From NCBI GenBank assembly GCA_964016885.1, contig OZ024749.1:31930001-31994000 (forward strand): 64,000 nt of DNA, given 5' to 3'. The stretch comes from Eledone cirrhosa. Lineage: Eukaryota. The notes beneath the pieces were generated by a model. The model saw nothing but the letters and a program-made list of their open reading frames with translations, was not told the DNA's origin and did not search any database. The translations under genes were made by a program, and so were the position numbers. This document shows positions 1,800-55,560 of the stretch, in pieces; the stretch's first letter is position 1; each line of letters begins with the position of its first letter.

Positions 1800-3688
1800 A
1801 TGGTCGTACTTAGAATAGGCAGTGTAAATGTACGTGGCCTCGGGTCATCTTGGAAGCAGGGTAACCTGCTCAACGACCTCAGGTCACTAAACATAGATAT
1901 GGTGGCCATCAGTGAGACCAGAATCTCCGAAGCACGTGCCTTCGTACCGATCTTTTTATTTAGATAGGGTATTCTGTAGGGAAACAGATAAGGCTAGTGT
2001 AGGTTGTCCACAATTTAAAGTATTCGACTACACGGACCACAAATTTGTGATCTGTGAAGTTGACCTTGTTCACGGGTGCGATCGTCAACAACAGGTGGTG
2101 GTTTACACTGAAAAGGGCTATTAGAGTAGAATCGATAAGGTTTAGCAAAGGAGTAGTGATAAAGGAAAGTAGAGTAGAGGGAGAGTTAGTTAGAAAGCTA
2201 GAAGAGGCGTTTAGGACAGGCATCACAACCGACGTGCTTGCGGCGAGATTGGCACTCGACCAATTCTTCAACGCAAAGCATGAAGGCTGCGTTGTCAGAG
2301 CTAGAGCGCGTGCTCTAAGACACGAGGGGACGAAAGCCGTTCAATGGGCCCGGGTGGTAGAGGCGCGACGTGGCAACAAGTCCACAATTCGGTCATTGCC
2401 TAATCAAAACGGGCGCATGTTGCTCGAACCCGAGCAGATGTGTGCGGCTTTTCAACAGCACTTTGCTCAATTGTTCGGGAGCGGCGGCGGGCCTGATCGG
2501 AGTATGGACTTCGGTGCATACTTCGACGGACTGTCGCGGCTGTCGACGACCGCAGTGCTGCGAAGAGCCGACAACAACAGGTGAAATACGGGATGGGATG
2601 TCTGACTGCACAAGGGGTAAATCGCCAGGTTTGGATGGTATGCCCTAGAGCTTTATGCGTATATGCCAGACTTGTTCGGCGACCGCTTGGCAGATGTCTA
2701 CTGCAACTGGCAGTAGAATCAGTTTTGTGAGCCGGGGATCGTGGCACTGCTGAGAAAAGACCCGAACAAGGTGGACGTTATAGACAACTTCAGGCCCATA
2801 ACTCTGCAAAAAGCAGAGTTTAAGATTTTGGCCAAGGTGTTAGCAAAGAGATTGGTGCTTGTCCTCGGTGATCTGGTGGGAGAGGCGCAGTTATGCGCCA
2901 TTTCGGACATATCCATTAACGTCAACCTCCATCTCATGCGATACATCATAGAGAGGGTTGTTAAGGAACCTGGCACAGGTGGGGCTCTGATCAACTTGGA
3001 TCAATCTAAAGCATTTGATAGGGTCAACCATCGGTACCTGGCTGCATTCCTCGAGGCGGCCGGCTTCTGGCCCGTTTTTAGGGGCTGGATCGCTGCGATG
3101 CACAACGACATCTGCTTGATTGTGAGGGTGAATGGTCCACTGTCGCAGCCTTTCAGCATCATCCGCTCGGTCTACCAGGTATTCCCCCTCTCGTCCCTCT
3201 TGTACGTACTGGCCCTCGAGCCATTACTGCACAAATTAGAGACGATGAGGGGGCTCCCACGCGAACTGAGATTTGGGAGATCCGTGTCAGCTTACGCCGA
3301 CGATGTCACCGTGGTCGTGTCGAGCACCAAACCCGTCCAGATGCTCGGCACGTCTCTCAAGGAATACGAAGCGGTGACAGGAGCAAAGATAAACCAGGAA
3401 AAGTCAGTGGGCTTGCAACTCGGCACCTGGAAAGGCAAGTTCATGCCGTCCGACAGCGTCGTGAGGCGCTGAACGGAAGGACCGGTTAAATTGCTCGAGG
3501 TCTGGTTCGGTCCGGACCTCCAGATGGAGAAAAACTGAATCGAGGTGACGAGCAGCTGTTCGCTCTCTTCAAGAGAACTTTCAGACCGGGGCCTATGGAC
3601 AATTTCCAGAAATCCCTGGCCTGGCAGTGCTACCGGGGAGCGTTGCCAGTTCGGGATAAGCTCTACAGGCACGGAGGTGCTGTCAGCC
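1800..3688 (+). pseudogene. Decayed ORF2 (APE endonuclease + reverse transcriptase) of a Tx1/L1-like LINE
   Basis: MVVLRIGSVNVRGL...DMVAISET (APE N-terminus), GKSPGLDG, NFRPITL...KILAKVLAKRL, LDQSKAFDRVNH, YADDVTV, GAKINQEKS. It has stops, frameshifts and an apparent deletion in the APE domain, and is cut off by a SINE at ~3689. Confidence 0.9.
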
Positions 3689-8572: not shown

Positions 8573-9339
8573 AATCTAGCCCCACTCGCTTTTTTCGCTT
8601 TTTTCCATCCACTGAATTATTGTTATATAAGTTTCCAGTGTCCCCGCATTGCCTGGTAGCTTAGCTGAGAATCGACTCCCTGATGACGTAAGGCTTCTCT
8701 ACAGATATTACATAACTGTATTTATCCCCTTACAGAAACTAATTAGTTGGAGTGAAATTTTAGTAAGTAAGTCAATTTTCATAACTTTCTTATTTACGTC
8801 TTTCATATAATTGTTCTGCATTCCCCTACATAGAACCACAAAGTTACTAAGACAAAACATATATATCTGCTGGCATAGTTATGCATCTGTATACATATGT
8901 CGGTAGATATATTAATTCTTTATAATCATCTCCAAATTATTTGTAGAGCAAAATTTGCCAAATTACTACTGTGACTGATAGTAGTGGCTAGGCTCTGTCT
9001 TAATAGCACCCCCACTCCAAGCTGGTTAACCTCAATGTCACGTGATTGATTCTTTTGAATTTGCCACTTGACCAAGAAGGCAGTGCATTTTCAGTGGCTT
9101 GGAATCTAGCCCCACTCGCTTTTTTCGCTTTTTTCCATCCACTGAATTATTGTTATATAAGTTTCCAGTGTCCCCGCATTGCCTGGTAGCTTAGCTGAGA
9201 ATCGACTCCCTGATGACGTAAGGCTTCTCTACAGATATTACATAACTGTATTTATCCCCTTACAGAAACTAATTAGTTGGAGTGAAATTTTAGTAAGTAA
9301 GTCAATTTTCATAACTTTCTTATTTACGTCTTTCATATA
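8573..9339 (+). mobile_element. Retrozyme-like tandem element: 237-bp direct repeats 530 bp apart, each with a type I hammerhead ribozyme
   Basis: 8573-8809 matches 9103-9339. HHR: ACTCC-CTGATGA-cgtaagg...ccttaca-GAAAC-taatta-GTT-GGAGT at 8675-8753 and 9205-9283. Flanked by (TA)n. Confidence 0.8.
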
Positions 9340-9569
9340 TATATATATATGCGCGTGTGTATGTGTTTAGACACATACGTACATACACATATGCATACTC
9401 ATATGCATACATACATACATACATACATACATACATACATACATACATACATACGTGTGTTTGTCCCTGTTATCGGTTAGAAGCGTGTGATATTGTCGAT
9501 GTAGTTGTTGTTGCTGTTTTTAGCAAGTCGTACTTTTTTTACCTTAGTTGATGATAACTGCCGTCCTTG

Positions 9570-15455: not shown

Positions 15456-15546
15456 GGATATATGTGTGTGTGTGTAAATGAATTCGGTTCAACAACCTAT
15501 TTAACAACGTTTAGACTTATACATATACATATATATAAAGATACAT

Positions 15547-15578
<32 letters not shown>

Positions 15579-15581
15579 CAT

Positions 15582-16446
15582 ATAAATGAAAGGTATAGAA
15601 AACACTGCATCGAAATGCGAACAGCATCCCATAATATATGAGTGACTATAGCGTCAAAATGGGAAAAATAGTTAACGTAAGATGTGGGAAAAATAATTCA
15701 AACTCATCTCAAAGAGAATCAGGATATAAATTCATCCACAAAATTTAGTGAAATCCAGGGAAAAATCAATAGAGCCTTAACTCATGATAAAATAAAGTCT
15801 AAAATACTTATCCTTCAATTTGGAAAAACTTCAAATGCTCTGTATAGTCTTAAAGACTATTTCATGAAAACTTTCAGTGGAGATGGTTACGGTCGAAATT
15901 CATCATCAGCAGAGCTCAACTCGATAACCAGGACTCTCACAGATTAATATGCCAAGAAGGGAATTTTAAAACTGGCCAGTTCAACATCATGCGTGATTAT
16001 GAAAAACGGACATGAGGAAATACATGGCTAGTGACGTCAGAATGAGACGAATGTTTGTTTACAAGAAACAGCAGTCAAAAACATTCCGAAAAAAACTCTA
16101 CAATAAGGAGTTCAGCAAAAAGCAATATTATCGCAGTTTTTTATTAAAAAAAACCGGGATTAGTCACAAATAATTTAAGCACTCGAGGAAAAAATCCGAG
16201 TATAAAATATATAAATGAAAGGTATAGAAAACACTGCAGCGAAAAGCGAACAGCATCCCATAATATATAAGTGACTATAGCGTCAAAATGGGAAAAATAG
16301 TTAACGTAAGATGTGGGAAAAATAATTCAAACTCATCTCAAAGAGAATCAGGATATAAATTCATCCACAGAATTTAGTGAAATCCAGGGAAAAATCAATA
16401 GAGCCTTAACTCATGATAAAATAAAGTTTAAAATACTTATCCTTCA

Positions 16447-16450
<4 letters not shown>
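15582..16450 (-). mobile_element. Retrozyme-like element: 240-bp direct repeats 629 bp apart, with a type I HHR at 15837-15915
   Basis: 15582-15821 is nearly identical to 16211-16450. Reverse complement: GCTCTG-CTGATGA-tgaatttc...gaaagttttcat-GAAA-tagtctt t aagacta-TA-CAGAGC. TA tracts on both sides; fragments at 26602-26783, 38110-38165 and 48850-48975. Confidence 0.8.
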
Positions 16451-16503
<53 letters not shown>

Positions 16504-22432: not shown

Positions 22433-22447
22433 ATATATATATATATA

Positions 22448-22760
22448 AATGAAGTAATTCCGTCGGAAAGGTCCAGGAAAAAAGAGTGCTCTATGTAGGT
22501 TACAGAGCTTAATAGTTATGTAATGAACAACATAAGGCAATTATTTCATTTACCAGTGGTTTCTTAAAAGCAAACAAATTTTGCTTTCAATCATCAGAAT
22601 GAAAAAATCCTGGTGTATTTATTGACATTGGATTTTAAAACCAATGTCAATAAACACACCAGGATTTTTTCATTCTGATGATTGAAAGTAAAATTTGTTT
22701 GCTTTTAAGAAACCACTGGTAAATGAAATAATTGCCTTATGTTGTTTATTACATAACTAT
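22448..22760. mobile_element. Foldback element family A: palindrome 22512-22760 with HHR on each arm
   Basis: Plus-strand HHR 22668-22728: tttcatt-CTGATGA-ttgaaagtaaa atttg tttgcttttaa-GAAAC-cactg-GTA-aatgaaa. Antisense copy at 22544-22604; one-arm paralog at 37416-37570. Confidence 0.85.
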
Positions 22761-22766
22761 ATATAT

Positions 22767-25557: not shown

Positions 25558-26607
<1,050 letters not shown>

Positions 26608-26781
26608 GAAAGGTATAGAAATTGTTTTAGCGAGAAGCTAACAGTATTCTATAATATATATATGCGACTATGTCGTCAAGATGGGAAAAATAGTTAACGT
26701 AAGATGTAGGAAAAATAATTCAAACTCATCTCAAAGAGAATCAGGATACAAATTCATCCACAGAATTTAGTGAAATCCAGG

Positions 26782-26831
<50 letters not shown>

Positions 26832-32569: not shown

Positions 32570-33020
32570 TACAATATTAAATAAATGGAAACTATATTTA
32601 TAAAACCATATTTATTTCATTATATATATTTCGGGGATATCATATTAATAATATGCTATGCCTTCCTCAGACAAAATACAATATAAACAGTTTTATAGAT
32701 AAATAGATTCGACATACCGTTATAACACCGACTTCCATTTGACGAGGTTTAAACTGGCAGTCTGAAATGGAAGTCGGTGTTATAACGGTATGTCGAATCT
32801 ATTTATCTATAAAACTGTTTATATTGTATTTTGTCTGAGGAAGGCATAGCATATTATTAATATGATATCCCCGAAATATATATAATGAAATAAATATGGT
32901 TTTATAAATATAGTTTCCATTTATTTAATATTGTAAATATACTCCAAATATTTGTCGAGTGCTTTTATATCAGTTATAAATATTTACTAGTTGTAACCCA
33001 ACAATTTTAAATATAACTTT

Positions 33021-38032: not shown

Positions 38033-38113
<81 letters not shown>

Positions 38114-38227
38114 GAAAAGTATAGAAATTGTTGTAGCGAGAAGCTAACAGTATTCCATAACATATATATATGTATATATATTTATGTGTGTTGGTGTGTG
38201 TGTGTGTGTATGTGTGTGTGTGTGTGT

Positions 38228-44155: not shown

Positions 44156-44399
44156 AAGTTGAAAGCATTTCTGTGTTCAATATATTTCAGTTTGTGTGGC
44201 TTCGAATAAATAAGAGAGAGAGAGAATCTTATTTAAAATATTGCAATATTGCATTTTCAGTTGAAAACATCGACACTTAACACTTGCGGAACTAATGGCA
44301 TGTGCACCTGACAGCAAATACTAATGTTGTAGCGACCAAACAGCAGGAGTAACAGCATCGACTACAACAACAACAACACAACTACTACTGCCACCACCA

Positions 44400-47300
44400 A
44401 CACTACCAACACCACAACACCACCACAGCTGCCACCACCAATACTACCACAAATACTACCAACAGCAACAACACCACCACAGCTGCCACCACAAATGCTA
44501 CCACAAATACTACCACCACAGCTACCACCACAGCTACCACCACAGCTACCACCACAAATACTACCAACAACAACAACACCACCACAGCTACCACCACAAA
44601 TACTACCAACAGCAACAACACCACCACAGCTACCACCACAAATACTACCAACAGCAACAACACCACCACAGCTACCACCACAAATACTACCAACAGCAAC
44701 AACACCACCACAGCTACCACCACAGATACTACCAACACCACAACACCACCACAGCTACCACCACAAATACTACCAACAGCATCAACACCACCACAACTAC
44801 CACCACCAATACTACCAACAGCATCAACACCACCACAGCTACCACCACAAATACTACCAACAGCATCAACACCACCACAACTACCACCACCAATACTACC
44901 AACAGCATCAACACCACCACAGCTACCACCACAAATACTACCAACAGCATCAACACCACCACAACTACCACCACCAATACTACCAACAACAACAACACCA
45001 CCACAGCTACCACCACAGATACTACCAACACCACAACACCACCACAGCTACCACCACAAATACTACCAACAGCAACAACACCACCACAGCTACCACCACA
45101 GATACTACCAACACCACAACTCCACCACAGCTACCACCACCAATACTACCAACAGCAACAACACCACCACAGCTACCACCACAGATACTACCAACACCAC
45201 AACTCCACCACAGCTACCACCACCAATACTACCAACACCACAACACCACCACAGCTACCACCACAGATACTACCAACAGCAACAACTCCACCACAACTAC
45301 CACCACAAATACTACCAACAGCATCAACACCACCACAGCTACCACCACAGATACTACCAACACCACAACTCCACCACAGCTACCACCACCAATACTACCA
45401 ACAGCATCAACACCACCACAGCTACCACCACAGATACTACCAACACCACAACTCCACCACAGCTACCACCACCAATACTACCAACAGCAACAACACCACC
45501 ACAGCTACCACCACCAATACTACCAACAGCAACAACACCACCACAGCTACCACCACAGCTACCACCACCAATACTACCAACAGCAACAACACCACCACAG
45601 CCACCACCACAAATACTACCAACAGCATCAACACCACCACAGCTACCACCACAGATACTACCAACACCACAACTCCACCACAGCTACCACCACCAATACT
45701 ACCAACACCACAACTCCACCACAGCTACCACCACCAATACTACCAACAGCAACAACACCACCACAGCTACCACCACAGCTACCACCACCAATACTACCAA
45801 CAGCATCAACACCACCACAGCTACCACCACAGATACTACCAACACCACAACACCATCACAGCTACCACCACAAATACTACCAACAACAACAACACCACCA
45901 CAGCTACCACCACCAATACTACCAACAACAACAACACCACCACAGCTACCACCACCAATACTACCAACAGCAACAACACCACTACAGCTACCACCACAGC
46001 TACCACCACAGATACTACCAACACCACAACTCCACCACAGCTACCACCACCAATACTACCAACACCACAACACCACCACAGCTACCACCACAGATACTAC
46101 CAACAGCAACAACTCCACCACAGCTACCACCACCAATACTACCAACACCACAACACCACCACAGCTACCACCACAGATACTACCAACACCACAACTCCAC
46201 CACAGCTACCACCACCAATACTACCAACAGCATCAACACCACCACAGCTACCACCACAGATACTACCAACACCACAACTCCACCACAGCTACCACCACAG
46301 ATACTACCAACACCACAACTCCACCACAGCTACCACCACAGATACTACCAACACCACAACTCCACCACAGCTACCACCACCAATACTACCAACAGCAACA
46401 ACACCACCACAGCTACCACCACAGCTACCACCACCAATACTACCAACAGCAACAACACCACCACAGCTACCACCACAGATACTACCAACACCACAACACC
46501 ACCACAGCTACCACCACAAATACTACCAACACCACAACACCACCACAGTTACCACCACCAATACTACCAACAACAACAACACCACCACAGCTACCACCAC
46601 AGATACTACCAACACCACAACTCCACCACAACTACCACCACCAATACTACCAACAGCAACAACACCACCACAGCCACCACCACAAATAATACCAACAGCA
46701 ACAACACCACCACAGCTACCACCACCAATACTACCAACACCACAACACCACCACAGCTACCACCACCAATACTACCAACACCACAACACCACCACAGCTA
46801 CCACCACCAATACTACCAACGGCAACAACACCACCACAGCTACCACCACCAATACTACCAACAGCATCAACACCACCACAGCTACCACCACCAATACTAC
46901 CAACAGCAACAACACCACCACAGCTACCACCACCAATACTACCAACACCACAATACCACCACAGCTACCACCACCAATACTACCAACAGAATCAACACCA
47001 CCACAGCTACCACCACCAATACTACCAACAGCATCAACACCACCACAGCTACCACCACCAATACTACCAACAGCAACAACACCACCACAGCTACCACCAC
47101 AGCTACCACCACCAATACTACCAACAGCTTCAACACCACCACAGCTACCACCACCAATACTACCAACACCACAACACCACCACAGCTACTACCACCAATA
47201 CTACCAACACCACAACACCACCACAGCTACTACCACAAATACTACCAACAGCATCAACACCACCACAGCTACCACCACCAATACTACCAACAGCAACAAC

Positions 47301-47580
47301 ACCACTACAGCTACCACCACCAATAGTATCCAACACCACAACTCCACCACAGCCACCACCAATACTACCAACACCACAACACCACCACAGCTACCACCAC
47401 AAATACTACCAACAACAACAACACCACCACAGGTACCACCACCAATACTACCAACACCACAACACCACCACAGCTACCACCACCAATACTACCAACAACA
47501 ACAACACCACCACAGCTACCACCACAGATACTACCAACAACAACAACACCACCACAGCTACCACCACAAATACTACCAAC
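44400..47580. repeat. 3.2-kb minisatellite of ~42-bp units and shorter non-triplet variants
   Basis: accaccacagctaccaccacaaatactaccaacagcaacaac alternates with ...gatactaccaacaccacaac variants that shift frame. Confidence 0.9.
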
Positions 47581-47588
47581 ATATATAT

Positions 47589-48850
<1,262 letters not shown>

Positions 48851-48971
48851 GAGTTTGAATTATTTTTCCTAAATCTTACGTTAACTACTTTTCCCATCTT
48901 GACGTTATAGTCGCTTATATGTTATAGAATGTTGTTAGCTTCTTGCTAAAACAATCTCTATACCTCTCATT

Positions 48972-49004
<33 letters not shown>

Positions 49005-51908: not shown

Positions 51909-53769
51909 TAAAATACGTATTTAAGAAAGCCACAACAATGCAGAGGGAAATCTCGAGGTAGGAAGTGAAAGATAGATAGGAAAAACAGGTGAAAGTGAAA
52001 ATTGAGAGAGACAAAGATGAAAACAAAACAAAGGTAGAAGGGTTACCGTAGTAGAGATTTAATCCCAATATTTCGGGCTCACCCCCATCAACGGGGGAAA
52101 GTTCCAAAAGGGGGGGAACAGGCCAAGCGCTGAAAGTTGTGATGTCGTTAAGACAGGAATGCCGTTATGGGGAGAAAATTATTTAAAATTTAAACGAGGG
52201 AAAGAATGCGCGTGCGCGTGATAGGCTGTGGCAAAAGCTACTGACCAAATGGGTTAAATCAAGAGGGTGCGCTAGCGTGTGAAAGCCGTAAGATATGTGT
52301 GTAAATATATATGTGTGTGTAACTGTGTGTGTATAAGTGTAAGTGTGTATATGTGTGAGTGTGTGTGTGTGTGAAAGATAGTGGGCTGTAGAAGCTGGAA
52401 ATCAAAGGGTGTGAAAGGTGGTAGGTTGTAAAACATGTGTGCGTGTATAAATATAGATGTGTGTGTGTAAGCGTATGGGTATACATGTGTGTGTAACTGT
52501 GTGTGTATATGTGTGAGTGCGTTTGTGTGTGAAAGATAGTGGGCTGTAAAAGCTGGAAATCAAAGGGTGTGAAAGGTGGTAGGTTGTAAAAACATGTGTG
52601 CGTGTATAAATATAGATGTGTGTGTGTATGCGTATGGGTATGCATATACGTGCGTGTGTGTGGAGATAGCAGGCCGTAGGCTGTGAATGGTCACTATGGT
52701 TAAGTTAGCCATGTCAGCTCATTTCTCTCAGCCCGGTTGTTAAGTGGGGGTCTGAGGTTCTTAATAACAAGTGCTTCCTTTATTCTTAAGGATCCGATGC
52801 TGCGTTCAGTCGCTAGGACTGTGACCAAGGGTCTACCCTGTGGGTTTGCGCATTTAAGGATGTGTTTACGGAAGGAAGATGCGTTGGTGTTGATATGTTC
52901 CTTGATACGAACATGCAGGGGTCGGATGGTGCTACCTATGTAAAACTTGTTACATTTATCGCATTGAATCTTATATACGACATAGGTGCGTAGGCAATCT
53001 GCCCCCCGTATCGGGCAGTTGCTGAGGGAACACGTCCCATCTGAATCGTCGGGTTTGTTGGAGAGGCATCTTCGCAGCGAAGGTCCTGTGTGGGCCAAAT
53101 GTATGTCAAGTCCCTCCGTCCGTATGGCCCTGCGGATGGCGTTCGTGGTATATTCACTCAGGTGGGGGTTTTAAAGAAGCACCTGCTATTATTTAATTTT
53201 CTAGTGGGTGTCTGTCTATTGGGTCTGGGGTCTCTAATTCCGTTAATCAGTCGCTTGGGATAACCATTAGATCTGAGTAGATTACGGAATTGCGTGGTAT
53301 GGGTGAGACCACCCATCGGGTCGCTGCATCTGTTAGTGATCCGTGTCAGTTCATTTAGGACATAGCCTCTCTTAGCGTTGTTGGGGAGGGCTGAGTTATA
53401 ATGCACAAATAAGTCCTTGCACGCTGCTTTGCGGTAGAAGGTGGTGTTTAAATTTTAAATAATTTTCTCCCCATAACGGCATTCCTGTCTTAACGACATC
53501 ACAACTTTCTCCGCTTGGCCTGTTCCCCCCTTTTGGAACTTTCCCCCGTTGATGGGCGTGAGCCCGAAATATTGGGATTAAATCTCTACTACGGTAACCC
53601 TTCTACCTTTGTTTTGTTTTCATCTTTGTCTCTCTCAATTTTCACTTTCACCTGTTTTTCCTATCTATCTTTCACTTCCTACCTCGAGATTTCCCTCTGC
53701 ATTGTTGTGACTTTCTTAAATACGTATTTTACACATTTCACAATGCTTCAAGCAAACTTTAACACCCTC
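51909..53769 (-). mobile_element. 5'-truncated Penelope-like retroelement with inverted pLTRs
   Basis: 51909-52195 and 53446-53731 are inverted ~285-bp repeats enclosing the minus-strand RT-thumb/GIY-YIG coding remnant. Both sides are embedded in (TA)n. Confidence 0.9.
52700..53445 (-). pseudogene. Penelope-like RT C-terminus + Cys-rich linker + GIY-YIG endonuclease (frameshift near 53160)
   Basis: FYRKAACKDLFVHYNSALPNNAKRG...; VVYKIQCDKCNKFYIGSTIRPLHVRIKEH...LRIKEALVIKNLRPPLN. Confidence 0.9.
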
Positions 53770-53822
53770 ATATATATATATATATATATATGGATATAAA
53801 TATATTCAAGTTTGTATGTATG

Positions 53823-54430: not shown

Positions 54431-55145
54431 CAGGGGTTGGACAAAATAATTGAAACACCTTAAAATTTCAAACAAATTTATTTTAATAAGGGGTAGGACC
54501 GCCTTTGGCAGTAATTACAGCTTGAAGTCTACGAGGTATGGACCCGTACTAGGTTTGAATTGTTTCCAAAGGAATTTGTGTCCATTCTTCAGCTAAAACA
54601 GTCTCTAGTTCTTGTAGTGATGATGGTGGAGGATATCGACTCCTTACTTGTTTTTCTAAAATGCATCATAAATGTTCAATAATATTGAGATCTGGGGATT
54701 GTGGTGGCCAGATAAGATGTTCAACTTCACTAGAATGTTCCTCGTGCCATTCAGTAACAACTTTAGCTGTGTGAATTGGTGCATTATCTTCCTGGAATAT
54801 TGCGTCTCCCTCCGGAAACAGTTCCGCAACCATAGGATGAATTTGATCAGATAAAATGCTTAAATAGTCTTGACTATTAATTCTGCCATGCAGGGAAACC
54901 ATTGGGTCGGCGGATTTGCAAGATATAGCCCCCCAGATCATCACAGATCCACCTCTCTGTTTAACAGTTGGAAGAGGGTAGTCTGGGTCAAATGCTAGTT
55001 TTGGCTGTCTCCACACGTATACTCGACCGGTGGTCATAAATAAGGTAAAGGATGACTCGTCCGAGAAAATAACATTCTTCCACTGCTCTAGGGACCAATT
55101 CTGTAGGTTTTTACTCCACTCTAAACGCTTTGCAACGTTTGTTGT
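54431..55145 (-). mobile_element. Truncated Tc1-like transposon (DD34E catalytic region and one TIR)
   Basis: TA-caggggttggacaaaataattgaaacacc terminus; FSDESSF, GGSVMIWGAIS, FQEDNAPIHTAK, WPPQSPDLNIIEHL. Confidence 0.9.
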
Positions 55146-55560
55146 AAATCTGTATTTATTAAACTCTCAAATCATGAGTCTGTTATACTTCTCGATATAT
55201 TTCAATGACATCATGAAAGTCAGTATTCGTTGGTTTCAAACATACCTCCTCCATAACACTTCTTTTAATTTACAGCAACAAAGTGGAAAATCTTAAAGTC
55301 TTAAATAAGATTCAGCACTTAAAACACGCCGCAGTTAAACAATGTTGCGAGTGATATAATCAGTTTAAAATTAAGATGGAGGATTTCATATAATGTGAAA
55401 TTAAAACATATCTACTTTCGAATGTCAGTGTTATTCCTGTAATTCTACATTGGATTCTTCGAAATAATTGCTATTCATTCTAACGCAGGTGATACTGCTG
55501 AAGATTTTCAGTATATAGAAAAGTTTCATATATTTATATATATTATTATTATATAATAAA

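What the first reader, a model, noticed from the sequence alone, without database searches (positions are those of the whole stretch)
15582..16450. Second tandem unit (629 bp) with a fully stemmed hammerhead
Seen: 240-bp direct repeats 629 bp apart. The unique part holds a minus-strand HHR with a 6-bp stem I (GCTCTG/CAGAGC), a long stem II, a palindromic stem III (tagtcttTaagacta) and an AUA site. Three further fragments (26602, 38110, 48850) share the same terminus next to TA tracts and differ in length at the other end. Inference: a fixed 3' end with variable 5' truncation fits target-primed reverse transcription of a tandem or circular template.
Basis: partly seen in the sequence, partly recalled or inferred. 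Interest (0 to 1): 0.7.

Follow-up and report, generated by a model that had tools for sequence, protein, structure and literature searches.

The report
Penelope-type hammerhead retrozyme, one fixed end
This is one copy of an abundant non-coding jumping repeat that carries a predicted self-cutting RNA motif; its copies stop at one fixed point and trail off at the other end, which suggests it is copied from RNA, likely a circle, by a Penelope-type enzyme, a known kind of element.

Summary
Window 15582-16450 is a 1.4-unit insertion of a ~629-bp non-coding repeat in a (TA)n tract, with a type I hammerhead on the minus strand (predicted cut 15843/15842). The family is abundant: 2,244 exact end-plus-(TA)n junctions and 2,068 exact ribozyme halves in the 3.0-Gb genome. 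Of 29 loci picked without regard to their 3' end, 28 stop at the same base; 5' ends scatter. An internal TA-like tract is the 5' end of 39 of 96 copies but a 3' end in 1 case against 1,021 read-throughs, so copying is polar. The fixed end lies 261 nt past the ribozyme cut and copies run through the cut with no pile-up (13 vs 11 and 15 at control sites): reverse transcription likely starts internally on a circle or an uncut multimer. Stem II shows one compensatory change between subfamilies; the window's subfamily has lost a base there, and stem II is short, not long. No autonomous partner and no RNA data were found. It is a new member of the known non-LTR retrozymes; this scan has already noted several other such families in this genome.

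The parts
15582..16450 (-). Whole insertion, 869 nt = 240-nt 5'-truncated unit (q390-629) + one full 629-nt unit (q1-629; q1 = 16210, q629 = 15582)
15582..15821 (-). 3' copy of the 240-nt repeat; its end at 15582 is the family's fixed 3' end (q629), followed by (TA)n
16211..16450 (-). 5'-truncated second unit (q390-629), 235/240 identical; 5' junction in (TA)n, 21 nt downstream of the ribozyme cut position
15837..15915 (-). Type I hammerhead: stem I 15915-15910/15842-15837, CUGAUGA 15909-15903, 4-bp stem II with ~30-nt loop and an unpaired U before G12, GAAA 15863-15860, 7-bp stem III, AUA site; predicted cut between 15843 and 15842
15831..15924 (-). Predicted extension of stem I: 6 more pairs (UCGAGU/AUUUGA) after a 3-nt UGA bulge
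   Evidence: arms as written in 37 of 54 parsed copies
15634..15645 (-). Internal TA-like tract (q566-577): commonest 5' truncation point (58-nt stubs), almost never a 3' end
16032..16039 (-). TGACGTCA (CRE-like motif, name recalled), possible promoter element; untested
   Evidence: intact in 46 of 50 copies covering it
15518..15581 (.). (TA)n-rich target tract on the 3' side
16451..16498 (.). (TA)n target tract on the 5' side
26602..26784 (-). Family fragment q449-629, 87% identical
38108..38165 (-). Family fragment q572-629 (58-nt stub), 78% identical
48848..48974 (+). Family fragment q503-629, 80% identical

Best explanation
It is a non-coding, hammerhead-bearing tandem repeat with one fixed end in (TA)n tracts, likely a non-LTR retrozyme that a Penelope-type reverse transcriptase/endonuclease copies from RNA, probably an RNA circle. 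Steps: (1, inferred) a donor with at least two ribozymes is transcribed on the ribozyme strand; (2, predicted) the hammerheads cut out a ~629-nt monomer that is ligated to a circle; (3, inferred) a Penelope-like protein made elsewhere nicks (TA)n DNA and starts reverse transcription at one internal site, q629, 261 nt 3' of the cut, where the RNA reads UUUAUAUA; (4, shown as pattern) synthesis runs 3' to 5', passes the cut site once or twice and ends at variable points; (5, inferred) the new strand is joined to the other side of the target by TA microhomology, most often at the internal TA-like tract 58 nt in; (6, partly shown) a few insertions later grow into arrays of up to ~50 units by local DNA duplication. 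The window copy has one ribozyme only and would be a dead end for circle formation. Odds: RNA-based Penelope-type insertion about 0.85; given that, circle about 0.55, uncut multimer about 0.45.
For: Fixed end: 28 of 29 loci selected on q1-389 end at q629; 2,244 exact end+(TA)n junctions, reversed-pattern control 0. Polarity: q572 is the 5' end of 39 of 96 unbiased copies, but the same tract is a 3' end once against 1,021 read-throughs. Read-through of the cut: 30 of 96 pass it once, 2 twice, 0 end at q361-376; genome-wide TA junctions at the cut 13, at control sites q359 11 and q390 15. 11 of 96 exceed one unit; 308 exact unit-to-unit junctions; no ORF, no tRNA head. Units within one insertion agree at 199 of 209 subfamily-diagnostic site comparisons, 121 expected if drawn independently. 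Ribozyme under selection: pair 10.2-11.2 is U-A in 18 and C-G in 16 of the 34 copies that keep it, never mixed (one change on the tree, not 34 events); N7 and loop III vary while core and stems stay. The genome holds many RT+GIY-YIG Penelope-like ORFs; one family has a sense hammerhead ~390 nt past the GIY-YIG and a TA tract ~150-220 nt further (5 loci), the same layout. Internal initiation on AT-rich targets is shown in vitro for a Penelope-like protein (PMC11167929).
Against: No autonomous element with this ribozyme or end was found among 47 GIY-YIG loci or upstream of 100 sampled ends. No RNA run was listed, so transcription, cleavage and circles are untested. The window's subfamily (28 of 62 ribozymes) lost the base at 10.1 yet went on spreading, and in the circular monomer fold stem I has a pairing probability of 0.00-0.07: cleavage may be weak or unnecessary, as for the anole element, which favours an uncut multimer. 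Multi-unit loci of 4.6 and 7.5 units show ABAB or ABBABBB variant patterns, not the star pattern of laps round one monomer. No A-to-G editing excess on the ribozyme strand (29/10,015 vs T>C 73/16,226, p 0.052 in the other direction). Target-site duplications cannot be read in (TA)n.
Confidence: 0.78

Rival explanations
1. Same Penelope-type insertion, but the template is an uncut linear multimer read from a short tandem donor; the hammerhead is slow, protein-gated or vestigial and no circle is needed.
For: Read-through of the cut fits equally. Youngest subfamily has an unpaired U before G12; hammerhead fold is not the lowest-energy one in the window copy. In the anole element ribozyme mutants still insert and unprocessed RNA is the main substrate (PMC11167929); 8 of 9 Xenopus retrozyme dimers did not cleave (bioRxiv 10.64898/2026.07.22.740005). 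Tandem loci of 2-8 units are common.
Against: Compensatory change and kept core across subfamilies show selection on the ribozyme. Linear copying can only shorten, yet each subfamily has copies longer than one unit. The two long arrays have units 3-7% apart, while units inside a dispersed insertion agree; nearby dispersed copies are closer to the array majority than to any unit in 14 of 14 rows, 6 of 8 and 8 of 8 rows with gap masking.
Confidence: 0.35
2. DNA-level spread: a rolling-circle DNA element (Helitron/Helentron-like) or extrachromosomal satellite circles that insert in (TA)n and form tandem arrays; the ribozyme is a passenger.
For: Helitron-type elements can give one fixed end, tandem copies and AT-rich targets (recalled). 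Long arrays with higher-order repeats exist.
Against: No TC...CTRR ends are seen in the sequence and no terminal or subterminal inverted repeat or end hairpin was found. Ribozyme orientation and distance to the fixed end match Penelope-like ORF elements in the same genome. Selection on the ribozyme implies an RNA stage.
Confidence: 0.07
3. The template is the opposite strand: q629 is a transcription start (fixed 5' end) and the variable ends are internal priming sites where target TA anneals.
For: Variable ends carry TA microhomology; rare variants show a slight T>C over A>G excess on the ribozyme strand, which would be A>G editing on the other strand.
Against: Needs near-complete copying to the 5' end in 28 of 29 loci; cannot explain selection on a ribozyme on the other strand; Penelope-like ORF elements here have the ribozyme in sense with the TA end downstream. 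The T>C excess also fits G:U misincorporation on a ribozyme-sense template (inference).
Confidence: 0.04
4. The copies are just 5'-truncated ends (pLTRs) of an autonomous Penelope element, not an element of their own.
For: pLTRs carry hammerheads and form partial tandems (PMC4209133, PMC8557442).
Against: The unit joins to itself without an ORF in 308 exact junctions; none of 100 sampled ends runs into Penelope coding sequence; no open frame with a Penelope match in the unit.
Confidence: 0.05

Closest known systems
Metazoan non-LTR retrozymes (coral, mussel, axolotl: PMC7229834, parts 3-4 of 6 and passages read; vertebrates: bioRxiv 10.64898/2026.07.22.740005, parts 1-3 of 5 read)
   Same: Non-coding, AT-rich (33% GC) tandem unit with one type I hammerhead per unit; monomers, dimers and long arrays; co-occurs with Penelope-like elements; U.U at the base of helix II in the older subfamilies as in axolotl HHR_Amex2; length within the 51-972 bp range of the preprint.
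   Different: 629 nt is longer than the 170-400 nt circles shown by experiment; helix III is 7 bp rather than 1-2 bp; circles and cleavage are not shown here; the parts read do not map ends, targets or read-through of the cut as done here.
Penelope-like elements, EN+ (Poseidon of Anolis, PMC11167929 parts 1-2 of 4; Neptune/Naiad/Chlamys, PMC8557442 passages; PMC4209133 parts 1-2 of 4)
   Same: Fixed 3' end downstream of a sense hammerhead, 5' truncation, partial tandems, AT-rich/(TA)n targets without readable duplications, rare head-to-head arms (L004, one arm ~29 nt short; L228).
   Different: No ORF. One dominant start site rather than two; inverted second arms are rare (1 insertion among 96 ends). 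Ribozyme has a stable helix III rather than the minimal dimer type.
Non-autonomous Chlamys PLEs such as MRC1 (PMC8557442, passage)
   Same: Non-coding, head-to-tail multi-copy insertions in microsatellites, mobilised in trans.
   Different: Those share 3' ends with autonomous families and mostly lack hammerheads; here a hammerhead is kept and no partner with the same end was found.

Membership tests
Non-LTR retrozyme | Type I hammerhead in each repeat unit | tested here: met
   (core intact in 56 of 62; one per unit in arrays)
Non-LTR retrozyme | Head-to-tail tandem organisation, short AT-rich unit | tested here: met
Non-LTR retrozyme | No protein-coding capacity, no LTR/PBS/tRNA head | tested here: met
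   six frames and tblastn; ARAGORN 0
Non-LTR retrozyme | At least two consecutive ribozymes (active-copy criterion of the 2026 preprint) | tested here: not met
   not met by the window copy (one ribozyme); met by other family loci
Non-LTR retrozyme | Self-cleavage and circular RNA | not testable with these tools
   no RNA holder listed; folding only
Penelope-like mobilisation | Fixed 3' end, 5' truncation, partial tandems | tested here: met
Penelope-like mobilisation | Microsatellite/AT-rich target bias | tested here: met
   3' flank TA-type in 27 of the 29 first loci (L011 and L016 differ); 5' flank with (TA)3 in 77 of 96
Penelope-like mobilisation | Sequence shared with the pLTR or 3' end of an autonomous PLE | tested here: inconclusive
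   no match downstream of 47 GIY-YIG hits out of 10,597 candidates
Penelope-like mobilisation | Two start sites / 30-40-nt tail, inverted 5' arm | tested here: inconclusive
   second site at q571 excluded (1 vs 1,021); one locus with an inverted arm ~29 nt short; inverted arms rare
Autonomous Penelope-like element | ORF with RT and GIY-YIG | tested here: not met
Helitron/Helentron-type rolling-circle DNA element | TC...CTRR ends with hairpin, or subterminal inverted repeats (features recalled) | tested here: not met
   ends read from sequence; inverted-repeat scan

The most novel reading that the evidence does not exclude
The copies are a genomic record of a Penelope enzyme starting at one internal site on a ribozyme-made RNA circle, running through the ligated cut, pausing inside the folded hammerhead (11 of 31 truncations in 16% of the exposure) and closing insertions by annealing new DNA to the (TA)n target; and the youngest subfamily runs on a hammerhead with an unpaired U before G12, either a tolerated new variant or proof that the ribozyme became dispensable.
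Probability: 0.35. Interest if true: 0.6.

Novelty: new member of a known kind. Interest (0 to 1): 0.36.

Why it matters
Retrozyme mobilisation by Penelope proteins from circles is proposed in the papers read, not shown. This family gives a mapped start site (q629), a counted read-through of the ribozyme cut, and three natural ribozyme versions (C-G, U-A, U-deleted), so a small in vitro test can separate circle from uncut multimer and ask whether cleavage matters. The element class itself is known, and this scan has noted many sister families in the same genome, so the added value is modest.

Tried and rejected
Rfam: whole window gave only microsatellite-driven miRNA hits among the 150 listed of 309; the unit alone gave no hammerhead match at E<=10. 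Repeat finder on the whole window was swamped by microsatellites. RNA evidence: no RNA holder listed; three runs of one sample and unknown type, contigs only, were laid on the element and show only high, uneven depth and the same variants, not used as evidence. Partner search: blastn, tblastn and an nhmmer profile against 47 GIY-YIG loci and 100 upstream flanks found nothing beyond a 23-nt antisense match (E 0.01-0.04) and separate inserted stubs. Second start site at q571: rejected. Pile-up of 5' ends at the ribozyme cut: rejected. An apparent cluster at q377-396 in the first, similarity-selected loci (7 of 47), which includes the window copy, was not borne out (q390 15 vs q359 11 and cut 13). 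ADAR-type scars: not seen. Star-like laps in 4.6- and 7.5-unit loci: not seen. Long arrays as donors: not supported but not excluded. One junction pattern matched only the window's own variant and was replaced. An 87-codon open stretch on the + strand had no Penelope match. Not in print, as far as searched: 'octopus + hammerhead ribozyme + Penelope' and 'cephalopod + retrozyme' each listed only PMC8557442; the octopus repeat paper PMC13282606 has 0 occurrences of ribozyme or retrozyme in its main text. Supplements (for example species tables of PMC7229834, PMC8557442 and the closed preprint supplements) were not seen and might list cephalopod families.

Full report
Numbering. The unit is read on the minus strand, the ribozyme strand: q1 = window 16210, q629 = 15582. 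The window lies at G000:C9:31,930,001 in a 3.0-Gb animal genome; from size and microsatellite load it is likely an octopus (inference; earlier scan notes say cephalopod).

Observation. The two 240-nt repeats (15582-15821, 16211-16450) are 235/240 identical and 629 nt apart. The insertion is one full unit preceded by q390-629, between TA tracts. A motif-plus-helix scan finds the hammerhead as described, with the predicted cut between 15843 and 15842, q368/369. Stem I extends by 6 pairs after a 3-nt bulge. Stem II is 4 bp with a ~30-nt loop; the window copy's lowest-energy fold lacks it (-19.9 vs -16.4 kcal/mol constrained), the family-majority fold keeps it. The three fragments end at q629 and start at q449, q572 and q503. 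Rfam gives no hammerhead hit.

Family size. The 5' part has 3,141 first-look candidates, 40 scored. Exact patterns: 2,244 end-plus-(TA)n junctions, 2,068 GAAA-stem III-cut halves, 308 unit-to-unit junctions; reversed controls were 0 in each. Sampled copies nearest to the window differ from their majority by 0.7-5%; older subfamilies are 80-90% identical. Two long arrays were read: ~50 units on C3 and ~47 on C2; both, and two short ones, end at q627-629 and start at a truncated unit (q67, q181, q276, q346).

Ends. Of 30 loci fetched with q1-389 as query, one was a duplicate; 28 of 29 end at q629 and one at q627. With 18 further loci chosen on the 3' part (30 fetched, 12 dropped as duplicates or array), 45 of 47 end at q629 and 5' ends run from q1 to q572. 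For an unbiased view of 5' ends I took the first 100 listed of the 2,244 anchored ends (all on C1) and dropped 4 rows (two duplicates or local repeats, one array longer than the fetch, one unchained): of 96, 18 are under 55 nt, 39 are 55-60-nt stubs starting at the internal TA-like tract (q572), 30 pass the ribozyme cut, 2 pass it twice, 11 exceed one unit, none ends at q361-376. The key control: that internal tract followed by (TA)n as a 3' end occurs once in the genome, against 1,021 read-throughs. Deletion between microsatellites after insertion would act on both sides; the asymmetry points to polar synthesis from q629 towards q1 with closure by TA microhomology (inference). Genome-wide, TA junctions at the cut number 13, against 11 at q359 and 15 at q390, so cleaved linear 3' fragments are not a favoured template. 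Eleven of 31 truncations fall within q281-360, 16% of the exposure (p 0.006); the interval was set after seeing the data, so this is a hint of pausing in the ribozyme only.

Ribozyme evolution. In 62 loci with a whole ribozyme (of 144 searched), CUGANGA is intact in 56, with N7 = U, G or C in 25, 22 and 9. Pair 10.2-11.2 is C-G in 16 and U-A in 18, never mixed; those 34 have U.U (one C.U) at the base of helix II, as reported for axolotl HHR_Amex2 (PMC7229834). The remaining 28, the window's subfamily, have lost one U, leaving an unpaired U before G12. Loop III varies in length while its stem stays. This is one compensatory event plus tolerated loop changes: modest but real evidence of selection on the fold in the master lineage. 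Whether the U-deleted form still cuts is unknown.

Template. Units inside one dispersed insertion agree at 199 of 209 diagnostic comparisons (121 expected), and their 2.3% difference is about twice the private mutation rate (196/8,514 sites vs about 1%), so they were likely identical when inserted. That fits a monomer circle, but also a homogeneous short donor. Against pure rolling on a monomer: loci of 4.6 and 7.5 units show periodic shared variants, and the long arrays have higher-order repeats, which means local duplication or multimeric templates. Long arrays look like poor donors: their units differ by 3-7%, and related dispersed copies sit closer to the array majority than to single units in 14 of 14 rows and, with gap masking, 6 of 8 and 8 of 8. 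There is no A>G editing excess; T>C is slightly higher than A>G (p 0.052). No RNA run was listed. I put circle at 0.55 and uncut multimer at 0.45.

Partner. The genome is rich in Penelope-like elements: 10,597 GIY-YIG candidates, RT in 7 of 8 ORFs tested and GIY-YIG with it in 5. One family has a sense hammerhead ~390 nt past the nuclease and a TA tract ~150-220 nt beyond, the same layout as here. No sequence match to this unit was found downstream of 47 GIY-YIG hits or upstream of 100 ends. The unit has no ORF with a Penelope match and no tRNA head. Head-to-head arms occur but are rare: L004 has a second arm q396-600, L228 two arms from q390, and 1 insertion among the 96 unbiased ends.

Comparison. 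It works like a non-autonomous Penelope passenger and meets the sequence criteria of non-LTR retrozymes at family level; the window copy itself has one ribozyme and fails the two-ribozyme criterion for an active copy. Cervera and de la Pena 2020 (PMC7229834; passages and parts 3-4 of 6) show circles in coral, mussel and axolotl and propose Penelope mobilisation; Li et al. 2026 (bioRxiv, parts 1-3 of 5) link retrozymes to pLTRs; Frangieh et al. 2024 (PMC11167929, parts 1-2 of 4) show internal initiation, AT-rich nicking and a dispensable ribozyme in vitro; Craig et al. 2021 (PMC8557442, passages) describe partial tandems, tails and (TA)n bias; Cervera and de la Pena 2014 (PMC4209133, parts 1-2 of 4) propose circles as templates of more-than-unit copies; PMC6765202 and PMC13282606 were seen as passages. 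Earlier scan notes describe other retrozyme families in this genome (349 notes fit the look-up), mostly two-armed with two fixed ends; none matched this sequence. Two leads from them were tested here and not met: a second fixed site ~58 nt away and editing scars.

Verdict. Real feature, first reading supported, new member of a known kind. Interest 0.36.

Noticed in passing
window 8575-9340 (+): A different tandem element, 530-nt period, hammerheads at 8680 and 9210, 1.4 units between TA tracts, ending ~85 nt past the cut in a pyrimidine-rich ...CTTTCA(TA)n like this family's end.
   Followed up: partly
window 22445-22765 and 32570-32950: Two back-to-back (mirror-image) hammerhead pairs, 22597-22551/22675-22721 and 32670-32621/32835-32884, in TA tracts: two-armed Penelope-type remnants.
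   Followed up: no
window 12019-11974, 22966, 26946, 27728-27698, 49792, 58468-58434: Six more single hammerhead motifs of other families; 14 scan rows in 64 kb in all.
   Followed up: no
window 51909-53770 (-): 5'-truncated Penelope-like element: GIY-YIG frame 52703-53170, a ~287-nt inverted copy of its 3' end at the 5' side, 98% identical, with ~40 extra nt on one arm. No match to this family; only a non-canonical hammerhead-like core is visible.
   Followed up: partly
window 2717-3469 (+) and 54669-55166 (-): LINE-type RT fragment (RVT_1, E 6e-20) and a Tc1/mariner-type DDE_3 fragment (E 3e-15).
   Followed up: no
G000:C3:161,512,232-161,543,860 and C2:378,112,535-378,142,133: Arrays of about 50 and 47 units of this family with higher-order repeats; each still has the fixed 3' end and a truncated 5' unit.
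   Followed up: yes
L096:6050-6900: Another hammerhead tandem (459-nt period) with the same layout, ending in ...CACTTTTA(TA)n, next to an 844-aa Penelope-like ORF.
   Followed up: no
L170; L130: The last 58 nt are duplicated in tandem through the shared TATAT, as expected if the enzyme jumps from q572 back to q629.
   Followed up: no
window 44361-47581: Tandem array of 38 copies of an 83-nt CCA/ACA-rich unit.
   Followed up: no
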